Below, piece by piece: positions 43,059-64,000 of a DNA stretch of 64,000 nucleotides. Within the stretch, counting starts at the first letter, position 1; each line of letters opens with the position of its first letter. This DNA comes from an uncultured Bacteriovorax sp. (GTDB lineage Bacteria; Bdellovibrionota; UBA1018): NCBI GenBank assembly GCA_964432565.1, contig CAYSOA010000004.1, forward strand, positions 38,839 to 102,838, read 5' to 3'. The translations under genes and the position numbers were made by a program. The notes below the pieces were generated by a model that saw only the letters and a program-made list of their open reading frames with translations, was not told where the DNA came from and made no database searches.

Positions 43059-43066
43059 ATTTCGAG

Positions 43067-43098: not shown

Positions 43099-43194
43099 TC
43101 TTCCCGTTGCGCTTGACCCGCCCGCGGCTCCATCCTAAAAGGGTAGCAATTTCCCTGAATCTCAACGGTTTTTCTCATCCCGGGAGAAGCACCC

Positions 43195-45957: not shown

Positions 45958-47168
45958 AACACAACGTCGTTGCCCCGAGCGTCGGGGAGTCCATCACCGA
46001 AGTCAGCATCCTGAAGTGGCTGAAGTCCGACGGCCAGCAGGTCAACAATGGCGAGGTCCTGCTCGAGATTGAATCGGACAAGGCCACCGTCGAAGTGGCC
46101 GCCGAAGCAACGGGAGCACTCACCATCACCAAGCAGGCTGGAGAGCGCATTCCGGTCGGTGAGGTCATCGGTCTGATCGACGATGCCGTGAAGGGAACCG
46201 CCGGAGCCGAACCCTCGAAGTCCCCTGCTCCCGCCGCTCGAGCCCCGACAGAGACCCAGGCAGCACCCGCGGCCGCCAGCGGCTCGGCACGCCCGGTGGG
46301 CAATACCCCCTCAGGACCGGCCTTGAACCAGATGGCCGCCGGCCCCGGAGCGAGCCCCGTTCGTGGGCATGCCGCAGCGGGAGCAACCGTCGCCGGTATC
46401 GCGACCACTACGACCCAGGCGACTCGCCCGGCTCCTGCCCAGGCCGTAGGCCCCCAGTACAAGGACCAACCCGGAGATCGCCGAGTTCCGATGTCAATGC
46501 TCCGCCAACGCATCGCCGAGCGGCTGAAGTTCGCGCAGAACACAGCCGCGATCCTGACGACCTTCAATGAAGTCGACATGTCTGCGGTCATGGCCCTTCG
46601 CAACAAGTACAAGGACGAATTCAAGGCGAAGCACGGGGTGCCGCTGTCGTTCATGTCGTTTTTCACGCGCGCATCCGTTGAGGCCCTCAAGATGATTCCG
46701 GACGTGAATGCCTCGATCGATGGAAGGGACGTGATCTACCACGACTACGTGGACATCGGCATCGCCGTCGGGACCGATCGTGGCCTGGTGGTACCCGTCA
46801 TTCGGGGCGCCGAGAAGATGGGCTTTCTCGACATCGAGAAGAAGATGGCCGAGCTCGCCGGAAAGGCGCGTGACGGCAAGCTCTCGCTGGCAGATCTCGC
46901 CGGTGGCACGTTCACGATCTCGAACGGCGGCACCTACGGGTCACTGCTCTCGACGCCGATTCTTAATCCTCCGCAGAGCGGCATCCTCGGAATGCATAAG
47001 ATTCAGGAGCGCCCCGTCGCAGTAAATGGAAAGGTCGAGATTCGCCCGATGATGTACTTGGCGCTGTCGTACGACCACCGCATCATCGACGGCAAGGGAG
47101 CCGTCACATTTCTCGTTCAGCTTCGCGATCTGCTCGAAAATCCTGAAAAGCTCTCGTTCAGCATCTGA
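45954..47168 (+). CDS. sucB: dihydrolipoyllysine-residue succinyltransferase (E2o)
   Basis: A lipoyl domain ([11 protein letters not shown]) is joined by an Ala/Pro linker to the catalytic domain (DHRIIDG). Confidence 0.9.
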
Positions 47169-47180
47169 TAGGAATCCGAC

Positions 47181-48596: not shown

Positions 48597-48669
48597 CTTT
48601 TTTGCTGGTTTTTTTACCTGTTTGCACCATTCCCGGTTTGCGGAATCGCCGTACTCATGGTCACTTGAG

Positions 48670-50046
48670 CGGATGATTCAGCAAATCGAACAGTGGACGG
48701 GTGATTTTGTCGGCCTCGTTTGGGGCATTCCCTTGGTCGTGCTTCTAGTGGGCTCAGGAATTCTCTTCACCCTCTATTTCGGCTTTCCGCAGCTTCGCTT
48801 CTTCAAGCACGCCTGGGAGGTGGCCTTCGGCAAGTTCGACAAGCCCGAAGACCAGGGAGAAATCTCGCACTTCCAGGCTCTGACCGCCGCACTTTCAGCA
48901 ACTGTCGGTCTCGGTAACATTGCGGGCGTCGCAGTTGCCATTTCGCTGGGTGGTCCCGGTGCCATCTTCTGGCTCTGGGTGGCCGGGTTCATCGGCATGT
49001 GCACGAAGTTCACCGAAGTGACGCTCTCGCTGAACTATCGCGACATTTCCGAAAACGGAACCGTTCACGGCGGCCCCATGTTCGTGATCAAAAATGCGTT
49101 GTCGAAGAACTTCTATCCGGTCGCCTGGTTCTACGCCTTTTTCGTAGTGCTTTCGTCGTTTGGTGCAGGAAACATGTTTCAGGCCAACCAGATGGCGGCA
49201 GTCATGCGGACGTCTGCAGGAATTCCGGAATGGGCATCGGGCCTGACTTTTTGTGTCGGGGCCTACCTCATTCTGATCGGAGGCATCAAGCGAATCGGCA
49301 AGGTCACCGAAAAGCTCGTCCCCACCATGGTGGGACTCTATCTCTTCGGCGCTCTGTGGATCATTCTCTCCCATCTCTCCCTGGTTCCTTCCATGTTCGT
49401 CCAGATCTTCTCGAGTGCATTCGCCGGAACGGCAGCAGTGGGAGGCTTTGCCGGAGCGGCCTTCAAGGACGTGATCGTCATGGGCATTCGCCGCGCGACA
49501 TTTTCGAACGAAGCAGGAATGGGCTCCTCGGCGATGGCCCACTCCGCCGCCAAGTCGACCCCTGTGCAAGAGGGAATCGTGGCACTTCTCGAGCCCTTCA
49601 TTGATACCATCGTCGTCTGCACGATCACTGCGGTCGCCCTTCTGCTGACCGGAGCATGGAGCGCGGATGGTGTGCAGGCTGGTTCCGAAATGACAGCTTA
49701 CGCCTTCGAGTCGGTCATGGGACCTGCGGGCCGATGGATCGTTACGGCGACCGTCACGCTTTTTGCGTTCTCGACGCTCATTTCGTGGAGCTATTACGGC
49801 GAACAGGGGGTCACCTTTCTCTTCGGGGAAAAGTGGCTGAAGGCGTATCGCTACGTTTTTATCGCCTTCATTTTCGTGGGTGCGATCGCGAAGCTGACGA
49901 TCGTCCTGAATTTGTCTGACGCCGTTTATGGCCTTCTGGCGCTGCCAAACATGCTGGCCTGCTACCTGCTTCTGCCGAAGGTCAGGCAGCAACTGAGGGA
50001 GTATGCTCAGAAGCTGCAAAGCGGTGAGATCCGCCGAACGGCTTGA
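48670..50046 (+). CDS. alanine/glycine:cation symporter (AGCS family)
   Basis: The AGCS signature is present (ALSATVGLGNIAGVAVAI...GGPGAIFWLW). The start was taken at MIQQIEQW. Confidence 0.8.
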   Translation, partial: RMIQQIEQWTGDFVGLVWGIPLVVLLVGSGILFTLYFGFPQLRFFKHAWEVAFGKFDKPEDQGEISHFQALTAALSATVGLGNIAGVAVAISLGGPGAIFWLWVAGFIGMCTKFTEVTLSLNYRDISENGTVHGGPMFVIKNALSKNFYPVAWFYAFFVVLSSFGAGNMFQANQMAAVMRTSAGIPEWASGLTFCVGAYLILIGGIKRIGKVTEKLVPTMVGLYLFGALWIILSHLSLVPSMFVQIFSSAFAGTAAVGGFAGAAFKDVIVMGIRRATFSNEAGMGSSAMAHSAAKSTPVQEGIVALLEPFIDTIVVCTITAVALLLTGAWSADGVQAGSEMTAYAFESVMGPAGRWIVTATVTLFAFSTLISWSYYGEQGVTFLFGEKWLKAYRYVFIAFIFVGAIAKLTIVLNLSDAVYGLLALPNMLACYLLLPKVRQQLREYAQKLQSGEIRRTA

Positions 50047-50067
50047 TGGACTGACGGTACCCCCCAG

Positions 50068-51396
50068 ATGAAGCCCCTGGAACTGAAACGCGCCCTTGGA
50101 AGCTTAGACGCCTCGGCCCTCGTGGTCGGGACCGTGATTGGTACCGGAGTGTTCCTCAAGACGACTCCCATGGCTCAGCTTCTGGGGTCCCCTCTTCTGG
50201 TACTTCTGGCCTGGACGGCGGCAGGTGCGCTTTCACTCATGGGGGCCCTCGTCTATTCGGAACTGGGAGCCATGCTGCCTGATGCAGGCGGCGAGTTCGT
50301 CTACCTCAAGAAAAGCTACGGAAAGGGCGTCGCATTCCTCTACGGCTGGCAGCGATTCTGGATCGGCGGACCGGGAACGATCGCAGCCTACGCCGTAGGG
50401 GCGGCCACCTTCGCTGTGGGGATCTGGCCGCTTTCGCTCGGCGCGCAGAAGGCACTGGCCGTTGGATTCATTCTTCTATTTTCCGGGCTCAACTGCCTGG
50501 CGGTGACCTTGGGTGGTCGAGTGCAGACGTCCCTGACCCTACTGAAGATGGGTCTCGTGGTGGGACTAGCCCTCGCGGCTCTCGCCTGGTCGGGAGGCGG
50601 CGACTGGAGTCGGTTGACCGCTCCAGTGGGTTCTCTCGGTCGCGATGCGACTTGGAGCAGCTTCGGCATGGCGATGATCGCGGCTCTGTGGGCATTCGAT
50701 GGCTGGAACAACCTACCGATGGCGGCAGGAGAAGTTCGGAGGCCAGAGCGCAGCCTGCCCATCGCACTAATCGGTGGGACGCTGGCCATTCTCGCCATCT
50801 ATGGCATCGCCAACATCGGCTACTTTTATGCTTTGCCGTTTGAAACCATCCTCGATCCCGGCGATCTCTCGGTTGCGGCGCGAGCTGCAGAGACCTTCAT
50901 GGGTCCGGCCGGAGTGATCTTTCTTTCCGTCGCTTTTGTCATCAGTGCAGTCGGTGCCATGAATGGTTCGGTGCTGACGGGTGCCCGCGTTCCCTACGCC
51001 ATGGCACGCGAGGGTCTGGCTCCCGCAGTCATCGGGAAAATCCACTCCGCATCCCAGGTTCCAGTGACTTCGGTGCTGATTCAGGGCGCCTGGGCGTGCC
51101 TGCTTGCCCTCTCGGGCACCTTCGAAATGCTCACCGACTGGGTCGTATTCTCCTCCTGGATCTTCTATGCTCTTTGCGGATTTGCAGTCATTCTGCTTCG
51201 TCGCAGGCTTCCGCAGCTCGCCCGCCCTTACCGCGTGCCCTTCTATCCGGTGCTCCCCGTTCTCTTTTGCATCCTCGCCACCGCGCTGCTCGTGAATTCG
51301 GTGATCGAACTTCCGAAGCAAAGCCTGTTTGGGCTGCTCTTCATCCTGACGGGATTGCCAGCGTACTGGCTTTTGCGAAGACTGCGTCCCAACTGA
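50068..51396 (+). CDS. amino acid permease (APC superfamily)
   Basis: It has 12 TM segments and APC-type motifs (VVGTVIGTGVF). Confidence 0.75.
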   Translation: MKPLELKRALGSLDASALVVGTVIGTGVFLKTTPMAQLLGSPLLVLLAWTAAGALSLMGALVYSELGAMLPDAGGEFVYLKKSYGKGVAFLYGWQRFWIGGPGTIAAYAVGAATFAVGIWPLSLGAQKALAVGFILLFSGLNCLAVTLGGRVQTSLTLLKMGLVVGLALAALAWSGGGDWSRLTAPVGSLGRDATWSSFGMAMIAALWAFDGWNNLPMAAGEVRRPERSLPIALIGGTLAILAIYGIANIGYFYALPFETILDPGDLSVAARAAETFMGPAGVIFLSVAFVISAVGAMNGSVLTGARVPYAMAREGLAPAVIGKIHSASQVPVTSVLIQGAWACLLALSGTFEMLTDWVVFSSWIFYALCGFAVILLRRRLPQLARPYRVPFYPVLPVLFCILATALLVNSVIELPKQSLFGLLFILTGLPAYWLLRRLRPN

Positions 51397-52911: not shown

Positions 52912-53691
52912 ATGAAACGCTTCCTCCCCCTCGCTGCTGCTGTCATCGTCGTGGGCATCTTTCTCAAAAGCTCACAAAAGGAGCCTTCGGAACCCTCCAC
53001 CACCCCCACCGAGGCGGTTGATCTACCGGTTGCCGACCTCTCCGGCGAGGATCGGCCCTCTCAGACCCGCGAAGTCGGCGAGTCGGAGACCGTTCGACCT
53101 TCGTCGGTTGCTTCAAAAGAGCGCGGGACCGAACCGACCAAGCCTGCGACAAGCAGCATCCCTCCCCGGTCCTCCTGCTGGGCCGCGTCCTTTGAAATCA
53201 CCCGAAGCCTCAGCGCAGCGCAAAGGGAGTCCTTCGGCGAACGCGATCACCTTCTCGATCTCTCGGCCCTTCGCGAGCGGTTTCCCAAGTGGTCTTCGTC
53301 ACGGCTCTGCGTCCGTGCCGAAGGCCATGCTCTCTCCTTCGAGAAGGATTCGAAAAGAAGGGATCACGTCCGCATCCGCGGAGGCTCGGGCAGAATTCGT
53401 CCCGACAGCACCCTGAAGGCGAGCTACTGCTCCGAGAAGGCCATCGACTGCGCCCCCTGCGTCGTGGTCCAGGAGGATTTCGACTCTGCCCTCTTTGGAG
53501 AGTCGGCCGAGGACCAGGCCGAGAACGAAGAGTCGGACATTACCGCACAACTTTCTCCCGAGGTTCAGCGAGAGCTCGCCCGTCTCGAACGCGAAAGGGC
53601 TCCTGCGGCCATTGACCACTGGAAGACCCGTGAGGTCGGCTCGGATTGCACCCCCTCCCCGCGAGTCGCCCAACGTGGAGACCGTCACTGA
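52912..53691 (+). CDS. hypothetical secreted protein, first gene of the Agl/Glt-like cluster
   Basis: There is a signal or anchor helix (MKRFLPLAAAVIVVGIFL) and several Cys residues. Its stop overlaps the next start (TGATG). Confidence 0.5.
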   Translation: MKRFLPLAAAVIVVGIFLKSSQKEPSEPSTTPTEAVDLPVADLSGEDRPSQTREVGESETVRPSSVASKERGTEPTKPATSSIPPRSSCWAASFEITRSLSAAQRESFGERDHLLDLSALRERFPKWSSSRLCVRAEGHALSFEKDSKRRDHVRIRGGSGRIRPDSTLKASYCSEKAIDCAPCVVVQEDFDSALFGESAEDQAENEESDITAQLSPEVQRELARLERERAPAAIDHWKTREVGSDCTPSPRVAQRGDRH

Positions 53692-55391
53692 TGAAGCGCG
53701 CACGCCCACTACGAGTGCTCTCGGGTCTTACCGGAATTCGAAGCCTTGCGCTCGCCGGCAGCTTCGCGCTCCTCTCCCTCTCCGGCTGTACCGAGCAGCT
53801 TCCGGGAAGCTTTCGTTACAAACAGCAGCTCGAAGTCTTTTCGACCAGCCAGGAGGTCAACACCTCCATTGATCTGCTCTGGGTGGTCGACAACTCGGCC
53901 AGCATGGATGTCAGCCAGAAGAAGCTGCGCGATGGATTTTCTGCCTTCGCCCGCGCCTATCTCAAACCCACCTGGGACATCCGTCTGGCCGTGATCACGA
54001 CCGACACCTACCTCGCCCACGCCGCATTCGACGGCTACCTGAATACCGTGATCCCCGGAACCGTCGGCTGGAGGTCGAATCATATCGCCCAGCGTTCGGT
54101 GGATTTCGTCAATCCTGAGCGGATCCCGAACCTTTGGGACAACGCCACGAAGACCTTTCCCAACGGAGTTCGTTATGGCGATATCTCGCCCGTCTGGGGC
54201 TCGAACTGGGCACGACTCATCCCTGGAATTCATGATGGTCCGATGACCACGCTCTGCTCCGAGCTTCTGCCCTACTTTCTCAAGGGCACGTCTCTCTGCT
54301 CCTCGAGAGACCAAATTCTCCCCGCTACGGCCGAAGCAGATGGACTGCGCCCCTGCGTGAGCCCCGATTCCGGAGCTGGAGAATCGAGCGTCACTTCCTG
54401 CATCAATACGACCCAGGTCGACGTCCTGCACACTCAAAGTCCGATCCTCGAAACCCAGCCGCCAACAGGCGTGCCCGCAGATGAGGCGTGGGTGGATGCA
54501 TTGGTTGAAAGGTTTCTCGTCAATGCCAGCGTCGGCAGTTCGGGCCAGGGTTCTGAACGCGGCATCAGCTCGGTACTGCAGCTTCTGGCCGACAACGAGA
54601 GCACCGAAACCCGCTTCTTTCGTCCGGGATCCCTACGCGGCATCCTGTTCATGAGCGATGAGGACGATCAGTCGATGGATCTCTCGCTTGCCACTCCCGG
54701 AACCACCCCACAGACTCACTATCAGTGCGACCAGGAGCGCCTTGCCGAACTCAATCCCGGTGACTCACGGGTGACGACCAGCTGTCCGACCCTCTCCAGT
54801 CGCTGTCCCGAAAAGGTGATCGACGGGTTCAGCTACCGTGTTTCTTACTGTCCGGCAGAGTCCGCCCCCCTGCTGTCGGTCGCCTCTGCAAAACAGCAGC
54901 TCGACACGTTCTTCACCGAGCTGGACGAAGGCACCCAGCCCCAGCCCAATTACTTCGTTGCCGCCATCATCCCCACCTCGGCCGCGGCGATCCAGCAGCT
55001 TCAGGAGGGCCGAGTCAGCGAGGACTCGGCTGTCGGGGCGCTTAAAAACTGGGCCGTCGACCGGGGTGACCGCTACCTCGAACTGGTCGAACGCGTGAAC
55101 AACGGCTCGCTGGCCCTGAATATCGCCGAATCCGACTACACGCCCATTCTCGAAACCATCGGCCGCACGATCGTCTCCAAAAAGGCAACGTTCAAGCTGC
55201 AACGAGAACCCAGCTCACTCGAAGAATTGATGATCTGGGTTCGCCATAACGACGAAACCCGCACGCTGATTTCAGACGAGCAGTTTTCGATCGAAGGAAC
55301 CACGCTCCGGATCACGGACCTTGATCTGGTGCTTTCGCTCGTCTCCACGGATCGGATCGTCATCGACTACCAGCCCAAGAACCTCAAATAA
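53691..55391 (+). CDS. Cys-rich von Willebrand factor A domain lipoprotein (CglB-like candidate adhesin)
   Basis: The lipobox reads LSLSGC and a VWA MIDAS motif is present (LLWVVDNSASM). There are more than 14 Cys residues across the 567 aa. Confidence 0.6.
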   Translation: MKRARPLRVLSGLTGIRSLALAGSFALLSLSGCTEQLPGSFRYKQQLEVFSTSQEVNTSIDLLWVVDNSASMDVSQKKLRDGFSAFARAYLKPTWDIRLAVITTDTYLAHAAFDGYLNTVIPGTVGWRSNHIAQRSVDFVNPERIPNLWDNATKTFPNGVRYGDISPVWGSNWARLIPGIHDGPMTTLCSELLPYFLKGTSLCSSRDQILPATAEADGLRPCVSPDSGAGESSVTSCINTTQVDVLHTQSPILETQPPTGVPADEAWVDALVERFLVNASVGSSGQGSERGISSVLQLLADNESTETRFFRPGSLRGILFMSDEDDQSMDLSLATPGTTPQTHYQCDQERLAELNPGDSRVTTSCPTLSSRCPEKVIDGFSYRVSYCPAESAPLLSVASAKQQLDTFFTELDEGTQPQPNYFVAAIIPTSAAAIQQLQEGRVSEDSAVGALKNWAVDRGDRYLELVERVNNGSLALNIAESDYTPILETIGRTIVSKKATFKLQREPSSLEELMIWVRHNDETRTLISDEQFSIEGTTLRITDLDLVLSLVSTDRIVIDYQPKNLK

Positions 55392-55409
55392 CCAAAAAGG
55401 AGAATGAAC

Positions 55410-56066
55410 ATGGACTTCCTCACCTTCCTCAAAGACCACTGGATGCACGTCGCCCCCATCCTGCTCGCCGCCGCATTTGCCGTAGCCATCGTGATCGAAA
55501 GGTTCCAAACGCTGTACCGAAGCTATCCGATGAAGGACACACACGGCTTCTTCGATCAAATCGGTCGCCACGTCATTGATGGAAACGTCCAGGGGGCCTT
55601 GTCCCACTGCGAGCAACAGGGGCAGAAGCCCGTTGCCGTCGTCGTCAAACAGGCCCTTTTGAGGGCTCAGCAGCCCGAAGCCCTCATCGAGAGCGCTCTC
55701 GAGATCAGCATCCATGAGGCGCAGCAGTCGATTCAAAGGCGAACTGCCTTTCTCTCGACCATCGCCAATGTCGCAACGCTTCTCGGTCTTTTCGGAACGA
55801 TCGCCGGCTTGATCAGTTCGTTTGAGGCAGTCGGTGCTGCCGACCCACAGCAGAAGTCGGCACTCCTTGCTGCCGGCATCTCCACGGCAATGAATGCCAC
55901 GATGATGGGACTTGCCGTTGCGATTCCCTGCATGGTGGCCTTCAGTTTCCTCATGAGCCAGAGCAATCGGGTCATGGCCGAGGTCGAACAAGGCGCAGTT
56001 CGCATCCTCGATCTTCTCAAGCAGCGCTATTATCGGGTGCAGAGCGAAGTTCGGGAGGCCGCATGA
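55410..56066 (+). CDS. MotA/TolQ/ExbB-family proton channel (AglR-like)
   Basis: It has 3 TM segments and the ExbB/TolQ signature region (LSTIANVATLLGLFGTIAGLISSF...AMNATMMGLAVAIP). Confidence 0.8.
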   Translation: MDFLTFLKDHWMHVAPILLAAAFAVAIVIERFQTLYRSYPMKDTHGFFDQIGRHVIDGNVQGALSHCEQQGQKPVAVVVKQALLRAQQPEALIESALEISIHEAQQSIQRRTAFLSTIANVATLLGLFGTIAGLISSFEAVGAADPQQKSALLAAGISTAMNATMMGLAVAIPCMVAFSFLMSQSNRVMAEVEQGAVRILDLLKQRYYRVQSEVREAA

Positions 56067-56515
56067 TGTCGCCCGGTTCAGGAAGCGATGGTCAGGACTT
56101 CGAACTGAACCTCGCAAGCATCATCGACTGTCTCACGGTCATCATCGCCTTCCTCCTGCTTTCATCCTCCTTCGTGTCCTATGGGGCACTCGACACGGCC
56201 GTCGCCGCACCACAGAGTTCCCAAACAGCGGACGGAAGCGAGGAACGACCCCAGAGCCTCACCTTGTCGGTGAAAATTCTGGAGGACGACCGGGTGGAGC
56301 TCGAGATCTCAGGAAAGCGAACTGAAAAGAGAAGGATCGCCCGGGACTCGCTTCGCACCGAACTACAGGCTCTGAAGGCGAAATATCCGGGTTTAGAGGG
56401 AATGGTTCTCTCAGCCGGCCCTCGCCTGCCTTACCGAGAGGTGATTCGAGGCATGGACGAGGCACGCACGATTTTTCCGGCAGTAGCGCTGGGCCTTTCG
56501 GGAGGTCGACAATGA
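56063..56515 (+). CDS. ExbD/TolR-family protein (AglQ/S-like), copy 1
   Basis: It has a single TM with the conserved Asp (LASIIDCLTVIIAFLL) and a 4-nt overlap with the upstream gene. Confidence 0.75.
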   Translation: MMSPGSGSDGQDFELNLASIIDCLTVIIAFLLLSSSFVSYGALDTAVAAPQSSQTADGSEERPQSLTLSVKILEDDRVELEISGKRTEKRRIARDSLRTELQALKAKYPGLEGMVLSAGPRLPYREVIRGMDEARTIFPAVALGLSGGRQ

Positions 56516-56973
56516 AGCGATTTCTGAAGAAGAAGAATAAGCCGCAGTCGACCGAAATGAGCCTGCAGATCACATCGATGGCCGATATCTTTACGATCCT
56601 GCTGGTCTTCCTCTTGAAATCGTATTCGGTCGGCGCCCTCGAAGTGCAACCGAGTCGTGGGCTCGAGCTGCCTGTCGCCCAGAGATCGGATACAGCCGAA
56701 TCCAGAATCGCGCTGGAAGTCTCCGAAAACTCGGTTCAGCTCGATGGCACTCCCGTTCTTCCCCTGAAACACTTCGAGCTTGAAGGTGCAACGCGCCTCG
56801 AGCCGTTGGGAAGGGCGCTTTCGGAGAAACTTGCCGCCCTCGGAGAGGCATCTCAGGGCAAGTTGATTCTGGTTGCGGATGCCCGAGTCCCCTTCGAGAC
56901 GCTCGAAACTCTGATGGCGACGGCCGCAGGTCAGGGCTTCTCAGACCTCAAGCTGGCGGTGGTGCAGCCATGA
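56512..56973 (+). CDS. ExbD/TolR-family protein (AglQ/S-like), copy 2
   Basis: It has a TM with the conserved Asp (MADIFTILLVFLL) and its start overlaps the upstream stop. Confidence 0.75.
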   Translation: MKRFLKKKNKPQSTEMSLQITSMADIFTILLVFLLKSYSVGALEVQPSRGLELPVAQRSDTAESRIALEVSENSVQLDGTPVLPLKHFELEGATRLEPLGRALSEKLAALGEASQGKLILVADARVPFETLETLMATAAGQGFSDLKLAVVQP

Positions 56974-59861
56974 CGCATCCCACGCTCCTGAGGCTGGTCC
57001 TCAGCCTGAGCCTCTGCCTGATTCTCTCGCCCATCAGTGTGTGCGCAGGCTCCAGCGACGAGATGACGCTTCGAAACGTTTCGAATGCGGAACGCGAAAA
57101 AATCGATCGGCTCGTCGATCGAGCCGCCCTCGAATCTCAGAGGCGAGCCATCGAGCAGATCGAAACACTCTTGACGCGCTACCGGAACACGGACCGTGAA
57201 GAGATGCTTCTCGCAAAACTGGGCGACCTGCGACAACAACGCGCCCAGATCGAGTTTCGCCTCGGCCAGCACAGCCGCGATGAGTCCTCCTATCGAAGGT
57301 CACTCTCCGAAGCGATTCGCACGTTCGACGAGGTGCTACGCCGTTTTCCAGAATCCGAACAGGTACCCCGGGTTCTTTCGTGGCGCGCCAGGGCCCATGC
57401 CGACCTCACGGCGCACGCCCTGGCCGAGAAGGATTTCGTCCGTCTGATCCAAAAATACCCCGAGTCTCCGGAGTCTGAATCCGCCCGAATGGCGCTTGCC
57501 GGCTATGCCGCCGAACGGGGCGATCACGCACGCGCCCTCGCCGTGCTCACGCCCCTGGCCTCACGGCCGGAATCCCCATTTCATCCTTTCGCCCTGCACC
57601 AAATGGCCTGGGCGGCGTTCAATCGCGAAGACATTCCCTCGGCGATCGATTATGCGCGCCGAAACGTCGAAGCCCTTCGCCACAGAAGGCAGGAGAGCCG
57701 ACTGAGCTCGAGTGATGAGGCCCTTCTTGAAAACACCCTGCTCGACGTTGCCACCTTCGAGGCGGATCGTGTCGAAAAGATGGCCAATCCGCCCTCGGCC
57801 CAGGAGATTTTCAAAACATTTCAGTCGCTATCCCCCGGTTCACGGATGCCCGCCATGGCGCTTCGCCTGGCCAAGCTGCTGCGCGCACATGATCAGTCGC
57901 GGCTTCTTGCCCAGTGGGGCGCGCTTGCCTGGCAGCACCTTCCCGAGTCCGGCGCCAGTGCAGAAATCGACCTCCTGCTTCGAGAATATGCCCATGGTCG
58001 CCGCGACTTCGTAACGCTTCTTGCGCCGCTTCCCGAGGTGGCTCGAACCGCGAAGAATTCCGCACTCGAGGGCCATCGCAGGCTATATTCGAAGGTCGCG
58101 ACCGAGCTTCACGAGCTTCTATCGAGGAATTCCGGCGCCTCGGTAGAAAAATCCAAACCATGGATTGAAAGGCTGGGGGCCGCCTATGAGCGTTTTCTCG
58201 AGATCACTCCGGCTTCGGATCCCAGAAACTTTCAGGCACGCCTGAATCTCGCCGAGGCATTCGTGGCCCTGAATGAGCTCGATCGTGCCATTCCGCTGTA
58301 TCGAGCCATCGTTGACTCTCAGGAATGGAGCAATGCCGCCGTGATCCGATCGAGCCTCGGATCGATTCGCTCTCGCCTCGAAAAGCTGAAGCAGGAAGGC
58401 GTCATGCCTGAGAAGATCACCCTGGCGGCCTTCGATCGGGAGCTCGACTCCGACCCGCGCATCCTCGAGCTTCTGGCATGGATCGACATGCATCTCTCAC
58501 ACGACAAGAACGGCGAATTCATCACGATGCTGCGCTTCGAGCGAGCCAAGATCCTCTATCGACTCGGACGACGATCAGAATCCCATCTCGCACTCGAGTC
58601 GGTCATCGACACCGCCCCAGACTCAACGGACGCCGGCGGGGCCCTCGCCCTGCTGCTGGACAGTGAGTTCTTTTCGGGTGACCTGCCGTCCCTGAAAAAA
58701 AGAATCGGGGAGCTCCAGAGAAGGCGCGCCCTCTCGTCAAACGCAAGCGCCACCCAGATAATCACTCAGGCAACCCTTCGCCTCGATGTTCTGCTCATGA
58801 ACCACACAGTCGATCCAGGAAACGCCCGCCTTGCGCGCGATCGCCTGCTGGCACGCGGGGACGCTCCGCAGGAGGTTCGAGACGCCGCACTCATCGATCG
58901 GGCACGAGAGCTGGACCTGAACGGAAATCCTGCCAATGCACTGGAGATGCTTCAAAAGGCCTCAAATCCGGAATCACGGGCGCCCGCCCTGCTTCTTCTT
59001 GCCTATGCCTCTGAGAACTGGACGGCCCTTTCTGAAATCTTGCGAACGCAGTGTGATCCGAAGGTGTCGATCTGCGCCCAGTTTTCGCAGTGGATGCGCT
59101 CACGCAATGCACCGAGGACCTCAAATCTCGTCGCTGAGCTGCGCAGGATTTCGAAATCTACCGGAACCGAACAATTGCTCTCCGTGCTGCCACTGCTGAC
59201 CCACCAGAAGAAGTTGGGCTATCGCGATCGCAACCTGTTGATTCGGCTGTCATCAAAGGGCTGGAACGACCTTCTTCCGATCATCCAGTGGGAAGCGCTT
59301 GCGCCGGCCATTGAGGGACTCGAAGCGGCACTCCAGAGCAGCCGTGAGCAGATCCGCCGTCAGTCGCCGCTGAGTGCCACCCAGAAAAGCGAGGCCCACC
59401 TCGTTCATCGAATGGATGTGATTCGGGAATTCGAAAACACGATCAGAGCAGCCCTGCAGATTCCGATTTTTGAGATTCAGGTTTCAGCGCTCCAGCAGCA
59501 CGCCGCCGCCATGCAGGACTTCAGCGAGGACATCGGCCGAATCGAAAACCTGCCCGCAGCAGTCCGATCGGAGATCGAAGCTCGTGCAAGCGAACTACGC
59601 CAGATTGCTGATCAACGCTCGTCCGCGCTGGCTCAGTCGGTCGCCGCGGGAGAGGCATTCATCGCCGGCAACCCGCAGCTCACCACGACGATGCCGATCA
59701 GCAGGGCCCGCAAACGGTGGTTCTTCGAAAACGCCGCAACGCTTTCTGAAACGCAGCAGGCGCTTTGGCTGGGTTGGATTCTCTGGAATTCGGGCGCGAA
59801 GCATGCCGCCTCCAGCGAGTGGGAGAAAGTGAAGCCGACGGTCACAGCGGCCAATCAGTGA
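56970..59861 (+). CDS. large secreted tetratricopeptide-repeat protein (963 aa; GltD/GltE-like candidate)
   Basis: A signal peptide is followed by degenerate 34-aa helical repeats (A..Y....G....A) throughout. Its start overlaps the ExbD stop (ATGA). Confidence 0.65.
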   Translation: MTHPTLLRLVLSLSLCLILSPISVCAGSSDEMTLRNVSNAEREKIDRLVDRAALESQRRAIEQIETLLTRYRNTDREEMLLAKLGDLRQQRAQIEFRLGQHSRDESSYRRSLSEAIRTFDEVLRRFPESEQVPRVLSWRARAHADLTAHALAEKDFVRLIQKYPESPESESARMALAGYAAERGDHARALAVLTPLASRPESPFHPFALHQMAWAAFNREDIPSAIDYARRNVEALRHRRQESRLSSSDEALLENTLLDVATFEADRVEKMANPPSAQEIFKTFQSLSPGSRMPAMALRLAKLLRAHDQSRLLAQWGALAWQHLPESGASAEIDLLLREYAHGRRDFVTLLAPLPEVARTAKNSALEGHRRLYSKVATELHELLSRNSGASVEKSKPWIERLGAAYERFLEITPASDPRNFQARLNLAEAFVALNELDRAIPLYRAIVDSQEWSNAAVIRSSLGSIRSRLEKLKQEGVMPEKITLAAFDRELDSDPRILELLAWIDMHLSHDKNGEFITMLRFERAKILYRLGRRSESHLALESVIDTAPDSTDAGGALALLLDSEFFSGDLPSLKKRIGELQRRRALSSNASATQIITQATLRLDVLLMNHTVDPGNARLARDRLLARGDAPQEVRDAALIDRARELDLNGNPANALEMLQKASNPESRAPALLLLAYASENWTALSEILRTQCDPKVSICAQFSQWMRSRNAPRTSNLVAELRRISKSTGTEQLLSVLPLLTHQKKLGYRDRNLLIRLSSKGWNDLLPIIQWEALAPAIEGLEAALQSSREQIRRQSPLSATQKSEAHLVHRMDVIREFENTIRAALQIPIFEIQVSALQQHAAAMQDFSEDIGRIENLPAAVRSEIEARASELRQIADQRSSALAQSVAAGEAFIAGNPQLTTTMPISRARKRWFFENAATLSETQQALWLGWILWNSGAKHAASSEWEKVKPTVTAANQ

Positions 59862-59928
59862 CAGAAGCGAAATCGCATCACTGCCGCGGCTCTTGATTTT
59901 CGGATGGGCAGTTGAGACGACAGACAGC

Positions 59929-61053
59929 ATGAAGCCCAGTCAGCTCTGGATCCTATTGGCCGTCGCCATCGTCAGTCCATCCGGCGACGCCGCGAATTCA
60001 GTCAGACCTCATCACGCTCAGGGCACACGCACCGCTCACTGGTCACCCGAGACTCGGGCACTTCACGAAAAGCTGAAATCCATTCAGGGAAAGGCGCTTC
60101 TCTTTGGCCACCAGAACGCCACCTGGGAAGGCAGCTTTGGCTGGCATGACAGTCAGCCCGAGGGCACCTACGCGTCGGATGTTCTGACTGTCAGCGGCGA
60201 CTACCCCGCTGTTTACGGCTGGGATCTACTGGACCTTTCAGATGACCTACGACGGCATATCGTCGCTGCACATGAACGGGGCGGCGTGAATACGATCAGC
60301 TGGCACATGCCCAACCCGGTTACCGGGGGATCCTACTCCGACACCACCCGCGCTCTGGGAACCATTCTGCCGGGTGGGCCACACCATCTCGCCTTCCGGT
60401 CGCTGCTGGATCGGGCGGGCGCCTTTCTGGATTCGCTTCGCGACTCGCGCGGCCGCAGAATTCCGATCATTTTTCGCCCCTTTCACGAGCACAATGGCTA
60501 TTGGTTCTGGTGGTGCCTGAAGCACGGAAGCGCGGACGACTTCGCCGCAGTGTTTCGGTACACCGTCGACTATCTCGTCAAAGAGTGGAACCTCGACTCC
60601 CTGTTGATCGCCTACTCACCCGACGCGACTCCGGTCTGGCAGTTTTTTCGCCCCTTCGAGGGATACCCGGGGGATGACCTGATCGATGTGGTGGGACTCG
60701 ACATGTACGGTGACGTGGGGCGTGACACGCTGGGATTCATCAACCGATCAGCGGTTCGCAGAAAAGTTCGCCAGATCACCTCGTTCGCCAACGCCCGAAA
60801 CAAGCTCGCCGCGATCACCGAGACAGGACTTGAAGGAATCACCGACAAGAACTGGTGGACCCGGCTGGTCCTCGACACGCTCGACACATCCTCGCTCAGC
60901 TACCTCATGGTCTGGCGAAATGCTCACGAGAGATCGTCGCATTTCTATGCGCCGAAGCCCGGTCACCCCTCGACACCCGACTTTCTCAAAATGAAGGCGA
61001 GCGGAAAGGTGTGGTTTAATCGAGACTTGGCCTCTTCGGTGAGCCCCCCTTGA
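59929..61053 (+). CDS. secreted glycoside hydrolase family 26 (beta-mannanase-like)
   Basis: A signal peptide precedes the GH26 motifs WHMPNP, FRPFHEHNGYWFWW (acid/base Glu) and AITETG (nucleophile Glu). Confidence 0.75.
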   Translation: MKPSQLWILLAVAIVSPSGDAANSVRPHHAQGTRTAHWSPETRALHEKLKSIQGKALLFGHQNATWEGSFGWHDSQPEGTYASDVLTVSGDYPAVYGWDLLDLSDDLRRHIVAAHERGGVNTISWHMPNPVTGGSYSDTTRALGTILPGGPHHLAFRSLLDRAGAFLDSLRDSRGRRIPIIFRPFHEHNGYWFWWCLKHGSADDFAAVFRYTVDYLVKEWNLDSLLIAYSPDATPVWQFFRPFEGYPGDDLIDVVGLDMYGDVGRDTLGFINRSAVRRKVRQITSFANARNKLAAITETGLEGITDKNWWTRLVLDTLDTSSLSYLMVWRNAHERSSHFYAPKPGHPSTPDFLKMKASGKVWFNRDLASSVSPP

Positions 61054-61102
61054 ACTGGCCACCCGAGTTCTTCAATCTCATCAGGCAGTTAGCCTAACCC
61101 CA

Positions 61103-61124
61103 ATACCCGACTCTTTTTGTTTGC
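61103..61124 (+). promoter_or_regulatory. conserved 22-nt upstream element, copy 2
   Basis: It is identical to the 22-mer at 52842..52863 and lies 45 nt upstream of the ATG at 61169. Confidence 0.55.
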
Positions 61125-61168
61125 AAAGCCTCTTTTTGTTAGTTTTAATTAACAATTAAGAGGTGACC

Positions 61169-61438
61169 ATGCTTTCTTCTCTCACCCCGACGATTCTAGT
61201 TCTGGCACTGATCCTCTCCCCTCAGGCGGTTGCCGGCTCGCGAGAAAAGGTCATCGATTTCGAGGACGCAGTGGTCGAGGGCGTCAACCGAAAGCCCTAC
61301 GACTCCCTGCAGGCCCTGTCTGAAAAGGAGCGCCGCAGTCGCCGCGCGCACCTCTACCATCGACGACTCAGCTTTCAGTCCGAAATTGAAGAAACCCTTC
61401 GCGAACGTGCACTCGAGCACGAAGGAGGCGGATCATGA
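61169..61438 (+). CDS. small secreted protein (hypothetical)
   Basis: A signal peptide (LTPTILVLALILSPQAVAG) is followed by a charged region. Its stop overlaps the next start (ATGA). Confidence 0.45.
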   Translation: MLSSLTPTILVLALILSPQAVAGSREKVIDFEDAVVEGVNRKPYDSLQALSEKERRSRRAHLYHRRLSFQSEIEETLRERALEHEGGGS

Positions 61439-62502
61439 ACGCTTCGCCCGATCGCCCTCTGATCGTTCGCATCCACGCTGCCGGAGGAACCCTCAGTGAA
61501 CTGTGGGATACGAATACCCCCCTATCCGTCGGTCACCCCCTCCGATGGGTGCTCGAATTCCTCAAAACGCCGGAGCGGCTGCGACTCACGGACACGCGCT
61601 CGTCCCTGCGCGTCGAGCAGGCCGTCACCGGAAGTGCCTCCGCCGGAGACGGCCTGCTCGCCGAATTTCCGCTAGGAACATCAGGACGAATCGCGATCTA
61701 TCGCGAAAACGCGGCGGGCTTTTCGAGCGTCACGACCAATGAAGAGCTGGGCTCGAGCCTCCACGAAACCCAGTTTCGCAGATCGGCGATTCGCAGCGTC
61801 GCACTCCTGGGTGCGGCCCTCCTCATCCTTCCCCTGATTCGCCCGGGCAGTCGCGAGCTCATCACCCGCGCCCCCGTTCAGGTCGTCGACCTCTCGAAGT
61901 TGGCCCAGGCTGCGGCAAAACCCAAGGCAAGGGGCGGCTCCGGTGGCGTGGCATCCAGGCTGCGAGCACTCGTCTCCGGTTCGCGCTCCCGCTGGCTTTC
62001 TCGATCTCCCGCCAGCACCCTGTCAGGACGATTCAGTGAAAAATACGCGGCCAACTTCGGCAATATGGCGTCCGCCCCCTCGCTGGGCCTTTCTGCTCTC
62101 GGAAAGTCCGGCTACTCGGGCTCGCTCGGAAGCGCTGGCTCGAGCGGCGGCACGGCGGGACGCAACTGGGTCGACCTCGACTCTCTTGCCGCCACCGTCG
62201 AGGAGGGCCTGACCCGAGACGAGGTGGGTCAGGTGATCCATAAGCACATGAAGGAGATTCGCTACTGCTACGAAACAGCCATGATTCGCTCGCCGGATCT
62301 CGAAGGAAAGCTCGTCGTCGAGTTCACGATCGGCCGTCAGGGTGCCGTCCGAAGCTCGGGAGTACGCACCTCCAGTGTTCCGGACCAGCGACTCGACGAC
62401 TGCGTTCTTTCACGCCTCGTGGCCTGGAAGTTCCCGCAACCCAAGGGCGGAATTGAAGTCGCCGTCACCTACCCGTTCATCTTCAAATCACTCGGGAAAT
62501 GA
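61435..62502 (+). CDS. bitopic membrane protein with a TonB-C-terminal-like domain (GltG/GltJ- or AgmX-like)
   Basis: A cytoplasmic N-domain and a TM helix (AIRSVALLGAALLILPLI) are followed by a Gly/Ser linker. The C-terminal ~90 aa (YCYETAMIRSPDLEGKLVVEFTIGRQGAV...DDCVLSRLVAWKFPQP...YPFIF) is TonB_C-like. Confidence 0.6.
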   Translation: MNASPDRPLIVRIHAAGGTLSELWDTNTPLSVGHPLRWVLEFLKTPERLRLTDTRSSLRVEQAVTGSASAGDGLLAEFPLGTSGRIAIYRENAAGFSSVTTNEELGSSLHETQFRRSAIRSVALLGAALLILPLIRPGSRELITRAPVQVVDLSKLAQAAAKPKARGGSGGVASRLRALVSGSRSRWLSRSPASTLSGRFSEKYAANFGNMASAPSLGLSALGKSGYSGSLGSAGSSGGTAGRNWVDLDSLAATVEEGLTRDEVGQVIHKHMKEIRYCYETAMIRSPDLEGKLVVEFTIGRQGAVRSSGVRTSSVPDQRLDDCVLSRLVAWKFPQPKGGIEVAVTYPFIFKSLGK

Positions 62503-63275
62503 CCATGATGAATACCGCTCTCAGCATCAAAATGGCCCTACTGCTCACACTAGTGATACCCGCCGTTCCGGCCTTGGGCGACGAGCCCCCCCCCACGGGA
62601 ACGCCAGAAACAAGCCACGAAGACCTCTCACCCGAAGCAGAGGAGCTCGAACGCATCAAGCAGCGCTACTGGGCGCAGGGAAACGAAAAAGAAATGGGCG
62701 TCGTCCAGAATCGCCTCTTCACCAAGGAAGGGCGTTTCGAAACCACGCTTTTCGGTGGCCTCCTCATCTCCGATCCATTCGTCAATACGTTCACGCCGGG
62801 GCTCTCGTTCGGCTACAACTTCGATGAAACCTTCTCGCTGCATGCCTTCGGATGGAAGGCTCTCGCCACACCATCGGCCGCCCTCGTCACGCTTCGGCAG
62901 GGGGAAAAGGAAGCCAATACCAATCCCACGTCCGCACTTTTCGGGACCGAGGGCCGTGCCAGCCTGCTCTATGGCAAGCTCAGTCTGCTCGGCAGGAAGA
63001 TACTGTACTACGACATGCACGCAGGCCTGGGCGCTGCCATCGTTCGCGCCGAGAACGGACTCTACGGTGGCCCCCTGATATCGGTCGGACAAAGTTTCTT
63101 TTTTTCGAACTCCATGACCTTTCGCATCGATTACCGGCTGATCGTCTACCGGGAGAACATCACCCAGAAAGAAGGGACCGAGGAGCAGCTCGGAAGGATC
63201 ATCGACCAGAGAAACAATTTTTCGAATTCCCTGACCTTCGGGATCAGCATCCTTTTTGGAGGATCGAATCGATGA
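62499..63275 (+). CDS. outer-membrane beta-barrel protein (GltA/B/H-like candidate)
   Basis: A signal peptide is followed by alternating beta-strand pattern with aromatic girdle residues (FGYNF, LLYGKLSL, TFGISILFGG). The gene is coupled to its neighbours by ATGA overlaps. Confidence 0.55.
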   Translation: MTMMNTALSIKMALLLTLVIPAVPALGDEPPPTGTPETSHEDLSPEAEELERIKQRYWAQGNEKEMGVVQNRLFTKEGRFETTLFGGLLISDPFVNTFTPGLSFGYNFDETFSLHAFGWKALATPSAALVTLRQGEKEANTNPTSALFGTEGRASLLYGKLSLLGRKILYYDMHAGLGAAIVRAENGLYGGPLISVGQSFFFSNSMTFRIDYRLIVYRENITQKEGTEEQLGRIIDQRNNFSNSLTFGISILFGGSNR

Positions 63276-64000
63276 ACACCAAGAATGCACGAGCATCCCT
63301 GATCGTTCTCTCGCTGCTGCTCGCCCCCCGGTCCTTCGCCGGCATCGACTGCCGTCGAGACGTTCCCACTCGATCCCCGGCCATCGACCTCGCCCTGGGG
63401 CTACAGTCTCGCCTCAGGGCGACATCACCCTCGGACCGAAAGTCGGCTGAACTTCAGATCGCAAATGCCCTGCACCAGTCCGGAATCATACGCCCTGCTC
63501 ACGCAGCCTATCGAGCGATACTCCGCTCAAACGAAGCGGCACCCACCGACCGTCTCTCGGCCATGACCTGCCTGAACCGCATCGAGCGAGTCGAGCCTGC
63601 CCTGGCGATGGAACTCCCTTTGACGTTTCTCACGTCCGTCGCCTCGCTCTCATCGACCGATGGCGAGCATCAGAGTGAGGGCGCGGAGTTCGTTTTTCGC
63701 CGGTTTCTGATCGCCCTGCGCGATGACACCAGAAGGGCTACTGCAATCCAAGCCCTGCTTGCCGAACGATTCGCCGCTCGTGCAGAGACCCAGGCGGGCC
63801 GCGCCTTTCTTCTGGCCAACGAAAAGAAGCCCATCGAAGCGGCGAAACTGCTGGAAGAGCTGCTTTCGAAACCTCGGCTGCCGGAAGGAGCCGAACGCCA
63901 CCGAAACGCCCTGATGCTGCTGGCAGGACGAACCGCCTTCGCAGGCGGACGCCCGCTCGATGCGGCTCGCTGGTACCGTTCGATCGAAAAGTCCTCGAAC
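63272..64000 (+). CDS. secreted TPR-like helical repeat protein, 5' fragment (continues past the window end)
   Basis: I translated from the ATG at 63272 and the frame is open to base 64000. A signal peptide (LIVLSLLLAPRSFAG) is followed by an Ala/Leu-rich helical repeat region. Confidence 0.5.
   Translation, partial: MNTKNARASLIVLSLLLAPRSFAGIDCRRDVPTRSPAIDLALGLQSRLRATSPSDRKSAELQIANALHQSGIIRPAHAAYRAILRSNEAAPTDRLSAMTCLNRIERVEPALAMELPLTFLTSVASLSSTDGEHQSEGAEFVFRRFLIALRDDTRRATAIQALLAERFAARAETQAGRAFLLANEKKPIEAAKLLEELLSKPRLPEGAERHRNALMLLAGRTAFAGGRPLDAARWYRSIEKSSN

What the first reader, a model, noticed from the sequence alone, without database searches (positions are those of the whole stretch)
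61435..62502. TonB-C-like domain on a protein with a ~120-aa cytoplasmic N-domain and a Gly/Ser linker (not Pro-rich)
The architecture is a cytoplasmic domain, one TM helix, a Gly/Ser-rich spacer (GGSGGVASR...GSLGSAGSSGGTAG), and a TonB_C-like fold. It differs from a classical TonB, which has a short N-terminus and a Pro-rich rod. It matches the GltG/GltJ/AgmX-type energy-transducer-like proteins that couple the inner-membrane motor to the outer-membrane gliding complex.
Basis: inference. Interest (0 to 1): 0.5.

Follow-up and report, generated by a model that had tools for sequence, protein, structure and literature searches.

The report
Compact GltG-type gliding-motor transducer protein
This gene encodes a small Bdellovibrionota version of GltG, the membrane protein thought to pass force from a proton-driven inner-membrane motor to the periplasmic and outer-membrane parts of the myxobacterial-type gliding machine, so it is a recognisable member of a known family, not a new kind of system.

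The parts
61435..62502 (+). The whole gene: a 355-aa GltG-type protein (FHA-like domain, TM helix, disordered linker, AgmX/PglI TonB-like C-domain).
   Evidence: ORF and translation; family hits; homologues; models.
61459..61704 (+). Residues 9-90: cytoplasmic FHA-like beta-sandwich carrying the family motif W24, P29, G33-x-P35-x-RWVLE41, R50.
61756..61839 (+). Residues 108-135: the single transmembrane helix (hydrophobic core 117-135).
   Evidence: Hydropathy; helix 108-134 with pLDDT 89-98. F114 is nearly invariant just before it.
61855..62208 (+). Residues 141-258: periplasmic Gly/Ser/Ala-rich, Pro-poor, net-positive linker. It is predicted to be disordered but contains family-conserved motifs (invariant P147, nearly invariant L188).
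   Evidence: Composition; pLDDT below 50 for residues 166-254; conserved columns.
62209..62499 (+). Residues 259-355: AgmX/PglI-type TonB-like C-terminal domain (alpha-alpha-beta-beta-alpha-beta) with two invariant cysteines, C278 and C323.
   Evidence: NF033768 at 107.1 bits (cut-off 40), TIGR01352 at 32.9 (cut-off 27.1) and PF03544 at 29.2 (cut-off 24.6). pLDDT is 93-98. Foldseek hits on TonB C-terminal domains have probability 1.00.
61163..61438 (+). A 91-aa secreted protein that is a distant GltF/CglF homologue. Its stop overlaps the start of the GltG-type gene (ATGA).
   Evidence: It has a signal-peptide-like N-terminus and a strongly conserved core, KVIDFED-VEG-N--P-DS...HLY-KR--F. 28 of 30 family members hit NF033764 CglF, with best E 9.5e-6. 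A homologue lies upstream of the GltG homologue in 62 of 63 eligible loci. CglF and GltF are the same protein according to PMC4488436.
62499..63275 (+). A 258-aa outer-membrane beta-barrel protein (OMP_myx_plus), in the position of gltH and resembling the GltA/B/H class.
   Evidence: TIGR04565 at 70.5 bits (cut-off 60). A homologue lies directly downstream in 60 of 77 eligible loci.
63272..64000 (+). The 5' part of the next gene, which runs off the window. Its orthologues in relatives are 534-610-aa GltC-like TPR proteins.
   Evidence: Translation. The window fragment itself gave no gliding-family hit. tblastn links it to L002 at 51% identity. The relatives' proteins hit NF033756 GltC at E 4e-6 to 9e-16, all below the model's cut-off.
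55404..56066 (+). ExbB/TolQ/MotA-family proton-channel subunit (AglR-like position).
   Evidence: PF01618 at 96.6 bits; TolQ and ExbB models match below their cut-offs.
56063..56973 (+). Two tandem ExbD/TolR-family genes (56063-56515 and 56512-56973), matching the AglQ/AglS-like pair.
   Evidence: PF02472 at 50.2 and 49.6 bits.
56970..59861 (+). A 963-aa secreted TPR protein in the position of gltD/gltE.
   Evidence: TPR Pfam hits and a YbgF-like segment. No GltD or GltE model hit was listed at E<=0.1. It is conserved between the ExbD genes and the GltF-like gene in relatives.
53646..55391 (+). A 581-aa putative lipoprotein with a DxSxS MIDAS motif, possibly the adhesin of the cluster.
   Evidence: Weak hits to the Bdellovibrio MIDAS adhesin and CglD models. 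The sequence shows LSGC and VVDNSASMD. It is conserved just upstream of ExbB in many loci.

Best explanation
The gene encodes the GltG-type transducer of an Agl-Glt-like envelope-spanning machine in a Bdellovibrionota bacterium.

Shown by the analysis:
- The protein has an N-terminal FHA-like beta-sandwich, one TM helix, a ~115-residue disordered Gly/Ser/Ala-rich linker, and a C-terminal AgmX/PglI-class TonB-like domain with two invariant cysteines.
- It is chained by overlapping start and stop codons to a GltF/CglF-like small secreted protein upstream and an outer-membrane barrel downstream.
- It is linked to ExbB, two ExbD genes and a large TPR protein.

Inferred by analogy with M. xanthus GltG (AglR-GltG two-hybrid in PMC3169522; AlphaFold complex model in PMC11761067):
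- The TM helix and the adjacent FHA-like domain dock on the ExbB-like pentamer.
- Proton flow through ExbB5-ExbD2 moves or tensions the helix.
- The flexible linker crosses the peptidoglycan layer, and its conserved motifs bind the TPR protein.
- The TonB-like domain binds the TPR protein and pairs a beta-strand with the GltF-like protein. This couples the motor to the GltC-like protein, the outer-membrane barrel and the adhesin module.

The FHA-like domain lacks any conserved Ser, His or Asn and lacks the Arg of the canonical G-R pair. It is therefore probably a phospho-independent docking module.
For: - **C-domain:** NF033768 scores 107.1 bits against a cut-off of 40. The GltG model scores 125.9 bits against 32.6 for GltJ. 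TonB_C and tonB_Cterm both pass their cut-offs. Foldseek matches to solved TonB C-terminal domains have probability 1.00 and TM-scores of 0.5-0.72 (target-normalised).
- **Fixed pairing of the two domains:** an N-domain profile searched against 1.84 billion representatives finds 396 proteins. Most of the 150 best listed are 350-610 aa long with the match at the extreme N-terminus, and all 10 of these that were tested carry the AgmX/PglI tail.
- **Synteny across 81 Bdellovibrionota loci:** the GltF-like gene lies upstream in 62 of 63 eligible loci. The barrel lies downstream in 60 of 77. ExbB-ExbD-ExbD-TPR lies upstream in 35 of 41.
- **Neighbours:** the p91 family hits the CglF model in 28 of 30 members. 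The downstream TPR is GltC-like in relatives.
- **Literature:** GltG is FHA + TM helix + disordered linker + TonB C-terminal domain and binds AglR. GltF pairs with the GltG C-terminal sheet.
Against: - The protein reaches only 125.9 bits on the GltG equivalog model (cut-off 650). Only profile positions 501-649 align.
- M. xanthus GltG has two FHA domains and was described as having a proline-rich motif. This protein has one such domain and 3% Pro in its linker.
- The large TPR protein gave no GltD or GltE model hit.
- No experiment exists for this clade, and the Bdellovibrio gliding motor is still regarded as unidentified (PMC13104615).
Confidence: 0.8

Rival explanations
1. It is a plain TonB paralogue that energises TonB-dependent outer-membrane receptors for nutrient uptake.
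For: Pfam TonB_C and TIGR01352 pass their cut-offs. ExbB and ExbD genes lie nearby. The C-domain fold matches TonB C-terminal domains.
Against: The more specific AgmX/PglI model scores far higher (107 against 29-33 bits). The protein has no Pro-rich rod (3% Pro) and a roughly 107-residue, largely folded N-terminal part instead of a short tail. None of the four distinct Pfam-labelled syntenic contexts contains a TonB-dependent receptor or plug gene. The gene is consistently flanked by GltF-like and OMP_myx_plus genes.
Confidence: 0.03
2. It is a GltJ/AgmX-type protein, the MglA-responsive switch component with a cytoplasmic zinc ribbon and GYF domain.
For: It shares the C-terminal AgmX/PglI domain and hits the GltJ model weakly (32.6 bits). 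It also has a single TM helix.
Against: The cytoplasmic part has no cysteine at all and no GYF motif. It models as an FHA-like fold, which is the GltG feature. The GltG model scores about four times higher than the GltJ model. The gene sits in the gltF-gltG-gltH position.
Confidence: 0.04
3. The protein has the same molecular role (motor-to-envelope transducer), but the machine does something other than gliding. It could be a Glt/Nfs-like paralogue that moves surface polymers or acts in prey attachment or exit.
For: Luciano et al. report a 'core complex' of gltD/E/G/C plus aglRQS in non-gliding bacteria, and several paralogous sets in Bdellovibrio and M. xanthus that do not substitute for motility. 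A GH26 glycanase gene is inserted in this cluster.
Against: The cluster also carries group-A-type genes (GltF-like, OMP_myx_plus barrel) and a MIDAS-type lipoprotein, a set close to the gene list that Luciano et al. proposed marks potential gliders. The GH26 insertion is not conserved in relatives.
Confidence: 0.15
4. It is a TolA analogue of a Tol-Pal-like cell-envelope integrity system.
For: The motor subunit scores best on TolQ models, and the TPR protein has a YbgF/CpoB-like segment. PMC11761067 itself compares GltG with TolA. TolA C-terminal domains appear among the weaker fold hits.
Against: No TolB or Pal genes lie in the cluster. All Tol models score far below their cut-offs. There is no long helical TolA domain II; the linker is predicted to be disordered.
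Confidence: 0.02

Closest known systems
Myxococcus xanthus GltG (PglI, MXAN_4867)
   Same: Both have a cytoplasmic FHA-type fold next to a single TM helix. Both have a long disordered periplasmic linker and a C-terminal AgmX/PglI TonB-like domain with the Cys pair. In both, the gene lies directly after gltF/cglF and before an outer-membrane barrel gene, and is linked to a TolQ/TolR-like motor and TPR proteins.
   Different: This protein is 355 aa against 640 aa. It has one FHA-like domain instead of two. The domain is not recognisable as FHA by sequence and lacks any conserved Ser, His or Asn and the Arg of the G-R pair. The linker is Gly/Ser/Ala-rich with 3% Pro. It scores 125.9 bits against the 650-bit equivalog cut-off.
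The roughly 500-600-aa GltG-like proteins of other Bdellovibrionota (e.g. P0039, P0103), annotated 'AgmX/PglI C-terminal domain-containing protein'
   Same: They share the same N-terminal W..P..G-P-RWVLE motif, the same C-domain (60-69% identical) and the same gltF-like/OMP neighbours.
   Different: They carry a second cytoplasmic segment of about 130 residues before the TM helix, and a longer linker. The window's clade is the shortest form.
M. xanthus GltJ (AgmX)
   Same: It has a single TM helix, a disordered periplasmic part and the same class of C-terminal domain.
   Different: GltJ has a zinc ribbon and a GYF domain in the cytoplasm. Here there is no Cys and no GYF, and the fold is FHA-like.
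TonB / TolA energy transducers
   Same: The topology is the same (N-in, single TM helix, periplasmic spacer, C-terminal alpha/beta domain), and each is partnered with an ExbB/TolQ-ExbD/TolR-type motor. The C-domain fold superposes on TonB C-terminal domains.
   Different: This protein has a folded cytoplasmic domain, no Pro-rich rod or long helix, two extra N-terminal helices and a Cys pair in the C-domain, and no receptor or TolB/Pal partners nearby.
FHA-like cytoplasmic domains of other envelope machines (EssC/YukB of type VII secretion; PrgH/MxiG of type III secretion)
   Same: These are the best structural matches of the N-domain. They are also placed in the cytoplasm next to a TM helix of a large envelope machine.
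   Different: There is no sequence similarity, the machines are unrelated, and the resemblance is at fold level only.

Membership tests
GltG (adventurous gliding motility protein, NF033760) | C-terminal AgmX/PglI (myxo_SS_tail) TonB-like domain | tested here: met
   NF033768 scores 107.1 bits against a cut-off of 40. The fold matches TonB C-terminal domains. Two cysteines are invariant.
GltG (adventurous gliding motility protein, NF033760) | Full-length equivalog score at or above the NCBIfam cut-off (650 bits) | tested here: not met
   The score is 125.9 bits, and only profile positions 501-649 align.
GltG (adventurous gliding motility protein, NF033760) | Cytoplasmic FHA domain preceding a single TM helix | tested here: inconclusive
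GltG (adventurous gliding motility protein, NF033760) | Genomic association with gltF, an outer-membrane barrel, TPR Glt proteins and the aglRQS-type motor | tested here: met
   Gene order in the window. Conservation in 81 loci. p91 is CglF/GltF-like. The downstream TPR is GltC-like in relatives.
GltG (adventurous gliding motility protein, NF033760) | Physical interaction of the TM region with AglR, and a requirement for gliding | not testable with these tools
   This is known for M. xanthus only (PMC3169522).
GltJ / AgmX (NF033761) | Cytoplasmic zinc ribbon and GYF domain | tested here: not met
   Residues 1-277 contain no Cys, and there is no G[YF][FY] motif. The GltJ model scores 32.6 bits against a cut-off of 450.
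Classical TonB | Short cytoplasmic tail and a Pro-rich periplasmic rod | tested here: not met
   The N-terminal part is about 107 residues before the helix and contains a confidently folded domain. The linker is 3% Pro.
Classical TonB | Functional or genomic link to TonB-dependent receptors | tested here: not met
   No Plug or TonB_dep_Rec gene appears in the four distinct Pfam-labelled contexts of relatives, nor among the cluster genes of the window scanned with Pfam (53646-63275). More distant partners were not examined.
Classical TonB | TonB_C domain (PF03544 / TIGR01352) | tested here: met
   PF03544 scores 29.2 bits (cut-off 24.6) and TIGR01352 scores 32.9 bits (cut-off 27.1).
Canonical phosphothreonine-binding FHA domain (PF00498) | Conserved G-R, S-x-x-H and N-G signature residues | tested here: not met
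   The invariant or near-invariant N-domain columns are W24, P29, G33, P35, E41 and R50 only. The residue after G33 is variable, and there is no conserved Ser, His or Asn. There is no Pfam hit.

The most novel reading that the evidence does not exclude
The W..P..G-P-RWVLE N-domain is a previously unnamed, phospho-independent FHA-like family. It is found only at the N-terminus of Bdellovibrionota GltG-like proteins and serves as the docking module for the ExbB-like pentamer. The 355-aa form would then be the minimal natural force transducer of an Agl-Glt-type machine. Together with its GltF-like partner, it would point to the still-unidentified gliding motor of Bdellovibrionota.
Probability: 0.4. 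Interest if true: 0.4.

Novelty: new member of a known kind. Interest (0 to 1): 0.25.

Why it matters
The motor and force-transmission path of Bdellovibrionota gliding are still described as unidentified (J Bacteriol 2026, PMC13104615). This cluster is a tidy candidate. It is nearly contiguous, broken only by a GH26 gene between the TPR gene and the gltF-like gene. Its GltG is about half the size of the myxobacterial one, which would make it easier to study structurally. The practical gain is better annotation: the gene is GltG-type rather than 'TonB family protein', the 91-aa neighbour is GltF/CglF-like, and the N-domain has an FHA-like fold. No new principle is involved.

Tried and rejected
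- **Pfam scan of 38 family N-domains at E<=10.** No FHA, Yop-YscD or any other shared family appeared, only scattered single-member chance hits.
- **PDB sequence search with the full-length family profile.** It gave only marginal TonB C-terminal domain hits (E 0.05-0.5) and nothing for the N-domain.
- **N-domain profile search of 1.84 billion representatives.** Besides the family itself, it returned 1000-1700-aa proteins with 5-13 short matched stretches. Three of them were checked and are WD40-repeat/nSTAND proteins, so I treated all of these as a cross-match on the S..WD motif and discarded them.
- **AFDB50 fold search.** This library was not available.
- **GltD and GltE model hits for the 963-aa TPR protein and its 1119-1148-aa orthologues.** None was found, only YbgF/BamD-like TPR segments. 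Its identity as GltD/E-like therefore rests on position and size alone.
- **Paralogue search in the window.** No second copy of either domain was found.
- **The Pathak & Wall 2012 paper.** It could not be read. The equivalence of CglF and GltF was taken from PMC4488436 instead.

Full report
**Observation.** The ORF at 61435-62502 (+) is real. It starts with ATG, has a GGAGG box 8-12 nt upstream, and encodes 355 aa. It has one strongly hydrophobic segment: the best 19-residue Kyte-Doolittle window is residues 117-135, with a score of 2.08. Residues 141-258 are 14% Gly, 18% Ser, 15% Ala and 3% Pro, with a net positive charge. An identical protein is on record, and full-length homologues run from 68% down to about 30% identity, with E-values as low as 6e-148. 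This is a conserved gene, not a chance ORF.

**C-terminal domain.** Pfam TonB_C scores 29.2 bits against a cut-off of 24.6. Against NCBIfam:

| Model | Score (bits) | Cut-off | Region aligned |
|---|---|---|---|
| AgmX/PglI C-terminal domain (NF033768) | 107.1 | 40 | whole model |
| tonB_Cterm (TIGR01352) | 32.9 | 27.1 | model positions 11-74 of 76 |
| GltG equivalog (NF033760) | 125.9 | 650 | positions 501-649 of 650 |
| GltJ equivalog (NF033761) | 32.6 | 450 | C-terminal domain only (576-671 of 671) |

- In the full-length AlphaFold model, residues 259-355 have pLDDT 93-98 and an alpha-alpha-beta-beta-alpha-beta topology.
- Foldseek places this domain on solved TonB C-terminal domains with probability 1.00 (H. 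pylori, P. aeruginosa, E. coli TonB-FhuA, FusB). TolA domain III appears further down the list.
- The protein has only two cysteines, C278 and C323. Both are invariant in 42 homologues.
- A periplasmic disulfide between the two helices that carry them is an inference and was not tested.

**N-terminal domain.** This domain needed the most work.
- No Pfam family matches it, in the window protein or in any of 38 family members, even at E<=10.
- It contains no cysteine and no GYF-like motif, so the zinc-ribbon/GYF architecture of GltJ is excluded.
- A 42-sequence alignment shows a family signature: W24, P29, G33-x-P35-x-R-W-V-L-E41 and R50.
- AlphaFold, run with an alignment of the N-terminal 140 residues, gives mean pLDDT 85. 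Most of residues 9-90 score above 90. The model is an eight-stranded beta-sandwich followed by a helix at 108-134.
- The canonical phosphothreonine-binding signature is not conserved. The residue after G33 is variable, and no Ser, His or Asn column is conserved.

**Linker.** Residues 166-254 are predicted with pLDDT below 50. Across the family the linker has a median length of 141 residues, 3.5% Pro and 39% Gly+Ser+Ala. It is not featureless: P147 is invariant and L188 nearly so. The family consensus also shows blocks such as EELIP-Q-AK after the helix, LLKGG---LLA in the middle, and GQG--FV-LD before the C-domain. The window's clade has the shortest linker, at about 113 residues.

**Family extent.** A profile of the N-domain alone was searched against 1.84 billion representative proteins and found 396 proteins at E<=1e-3. 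Most of the 150 best listed are 350-610 aa long with the match at the extreme N-terminus. All ten of these that I tested carry the AgmX/PglI tail, and all score higher on the GltG model than on the GltJ model. The rest of the list is shorter, apparently fragmentary proteins, plus 1000-1700-aa proteins with many short matched stretches. Three of the long ones were checked and are WD40/nSTAND proteins, so I set all of them aside as a cross-match on an S..WD motif. The two domains therefore form a fixed architecture. The roughly 500-aa relatives carry the same N-terminal motif plus a second cytoplasmic segment of about 130 residues before the helix. This echoes the two FHA domains of M. xanthus GltG.

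**Context in the window.** All the genes below are on the + strand.

| Coordinates | Product |
|---|---|
| 53646-55391 | 581-aa putative lipoprotein with a DxSxS MIDAS motif; weak CglD and Bdellovibrio MIDAS-adhesin hits |
| 55404-56066 | ExbB/TolQ family |
| 56063-56515 and 56512-56973 | two ExbD genes |
| 56970-59861 | 963-aa TPR protein |
| 59893-61053 | GH26 glycoside hydrolase |
| 61163-61438 | 91-aa secreted protein (p91) |
| 61435-62502 | the target gene |
| 62499-63275 | OMP_myx_plus beta-barrel (70.5 bits, cut-off 60) |
| 63272 onward | gene that runs off the window |

The last four junctions are ATGA-type overlaps.

The 91-aa protein has a strongly conserved core, KVIDFED-VEG-N--P-DS...HLY-KR--F. 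28 of 30 family members hit the NCBIfam CglF model, with best E 9.5e-6. CglF is GltF (PMC4488436). The window fragment of the gene after the barrel gave no gliding-family hit of its own. Its orthologues in relatives are 534-610-aa TPR proteins that hit the GltC model at E 4e-6 to 9e-16, all below the model's cut-off.

**Synteny elsewhere.** A scan of one genome per species returned 80 loci.
- All but one of the 80 loci are labelled Bdellovibrionota, Oligoflexia, Bacteriovoracaceae or with uninformative names such as 'Deltaproteobacteria bacterium' and 'bacterium'. The exception is labelled Lysobacteraceae.
- The closest relative is 68% identical, so the window's own species is not among the representatives.
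- Synteny was scored in 81 loci, these 80 plus L002, by tblastn with the window's proteins:

| Neighbour | Loci with it | Eligible loci |
|---|---|---|
| GltF-like gene upstream | 62 | 63 |
| Barrel gene within 400 bp downstream | 60 | 77 |
| ExbB-ExbD-ExbD-TPR within 10 kb upstream | 35 | 41 |

- In the four distinct Pfam-labelled contexts there is no TonB-dependent receptor or plug gene.
- The GH26 gene is a clade-specific insertion. The 68% relative has histidine-kinase and MFS genes at the same point. In one relative the gltF-gltG-OMP-gltC-like block is separated from the motor genes altogether.

**Comparison with what is known.** M. xanthus GltG (PglI, MXAN_4867, 640 aa) was annotated with FHA and TonB_C domains and a TM segment.
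- It lies in the order gltD-gltE-gltF-gltG-gltH, interacts with AglR in a two-hybrid assay, and belongs to the 'core complex' with gltD/E/C and aglRQS. Bdellovibrio carries four expanded sets (PMC3169522).
- The 2025 AlphaFold study describes an N-terminal FHA domain, an FHA domain next to the TM helix (330-348) that packs on the AglR pentamer, and a disordered stretch (371-494) long enough to cross the periplasm. It also describes a segment that wraps GltD, and a TonB-like C-terminal domain that binds GltD and pairs a strand with GltF (PMC11761067).
- The window protein reproduces this plan in about half the length, with the same neighbours.
- GltJ, by contrast, has zinc-ribbon and GYF domains (abstract of PMC11135422). 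This protein has neither.
- NCBI already names family members 'AgmX/PglI C-terminal domain-containing protein'.

**Mechanism, with shown and inferred steps kept apart.**
- Shown: the domain architecture, family membership of the C-domain, the fold-level FHA resemblance, and the conserved operon partners.
- Inferred from the M. xanthus work: N-in topology; docking of the helix and FHA-like domain on an ExbB5-ExbD2 motor; proton-driven movement transmitted through the flexible linker; binding of linker motifs and the C-domain to the TPR protein; and strand pairing between the C-terminal strand (residues 342-350, with V342, V344, Y346, P347 and F348 invariant) and the invariant KVIDFED strand of the GltF-like protein. 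Together these steps would link the motor to the GltC-like protein, the barrel and the adhesin module.
- Open: whether this machine drives gliding in this organism. A recent review still calls the Bdellovibrio gliding motor unidentified (PMC13104615), and paralogous Glt-like sets with other roles are known.

**Verdict.** It can be sharpened to 'GltG-type, not GltJ/AgmX-type, with an FHA-like cytoplasmic domain'. The protein fails the strict NCBIfam GltG equivalog threshold. I therefore file it as a compact, divergent member of the GltG family rather than an orthologue in the narrow sense. It is a new member of a known kind. The only mildly new element is a sequence-orphan FHA-like domain restricted to this family. 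Interest is 0.25.

Noticed in passing
window 59893-61053 (+): A GH26 (mannanase-type) glycoside hydrolase gene sits between the TPR gene and the gltF-like gene on the window's contig. The 68%-identical relative has two histidine kinases and an MFS transporter at the same point. This junction therefore looks like a variable insertion site that splits the glt-like cluster.
   Followed up: partly
window 53646-55391 (+): A 581-aa protein has a lipobox-like LSGC and a DxSxS MIDAS motif (VVDNSASMD). It hits the Bdellovibrio MIDAS adhesin and CglD models weakly, and it is conserved immediately upstream of ExbB in many related loci. It may be the surface adhesin of the machine.
   Followed up: partly
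window 61435, 62499, 63272: ATGA-type start/stop overlaps chain the GltF-like, GltG-like, barrel and following (GltC-like in relatives) genes. This suggests translational coupling of the four.
   Followed up: no
window 61163-61438 (+) and loci L002-L083: The small GltF-like protein is far more conserved than expected for a 60-residue mature peptide. I29, F31, E37, G38, N40, D45, H61, L62, Y63, R66 and F69 are invariant in 30 sequences. Its basic HLYRKR segment and KVIDFED strand have no described function.
   Followed up: partly
P0039, P0047, P0020, P0062, P0103 (relatives): The roughly 500-570-aa family members carry an extra cytoplasmic segment of about 130 residues between the FHA-like domain and the TM helix. 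It may be a second FHA-like domain, as in M. xanthus GltG. It was not modelled.
   Followed up: no
window 40719-51396 (+): Ordinary housekeeping genes lie upstream: a GH15 glucoamylase, the sucA-sucB-lpdA 2-oxoglutarate dehydrogenase operon, a sodium:alanine symporter and an amino-acid permease.
   Followed up: no
L058/L084 (JAGTJX010000003.1) and P0030: Two family members sit in MAGs labelled Lysobacteraceae/Xanthomonadaceae and Methylotenera. P0030 is also labelled Oligoflexia, and the loci have the full Bdellovibrionota-type cluster. These labels may reflect mis-binning or mis-assigned taxonomy rather than horizontal transfer.
   Followed up: no
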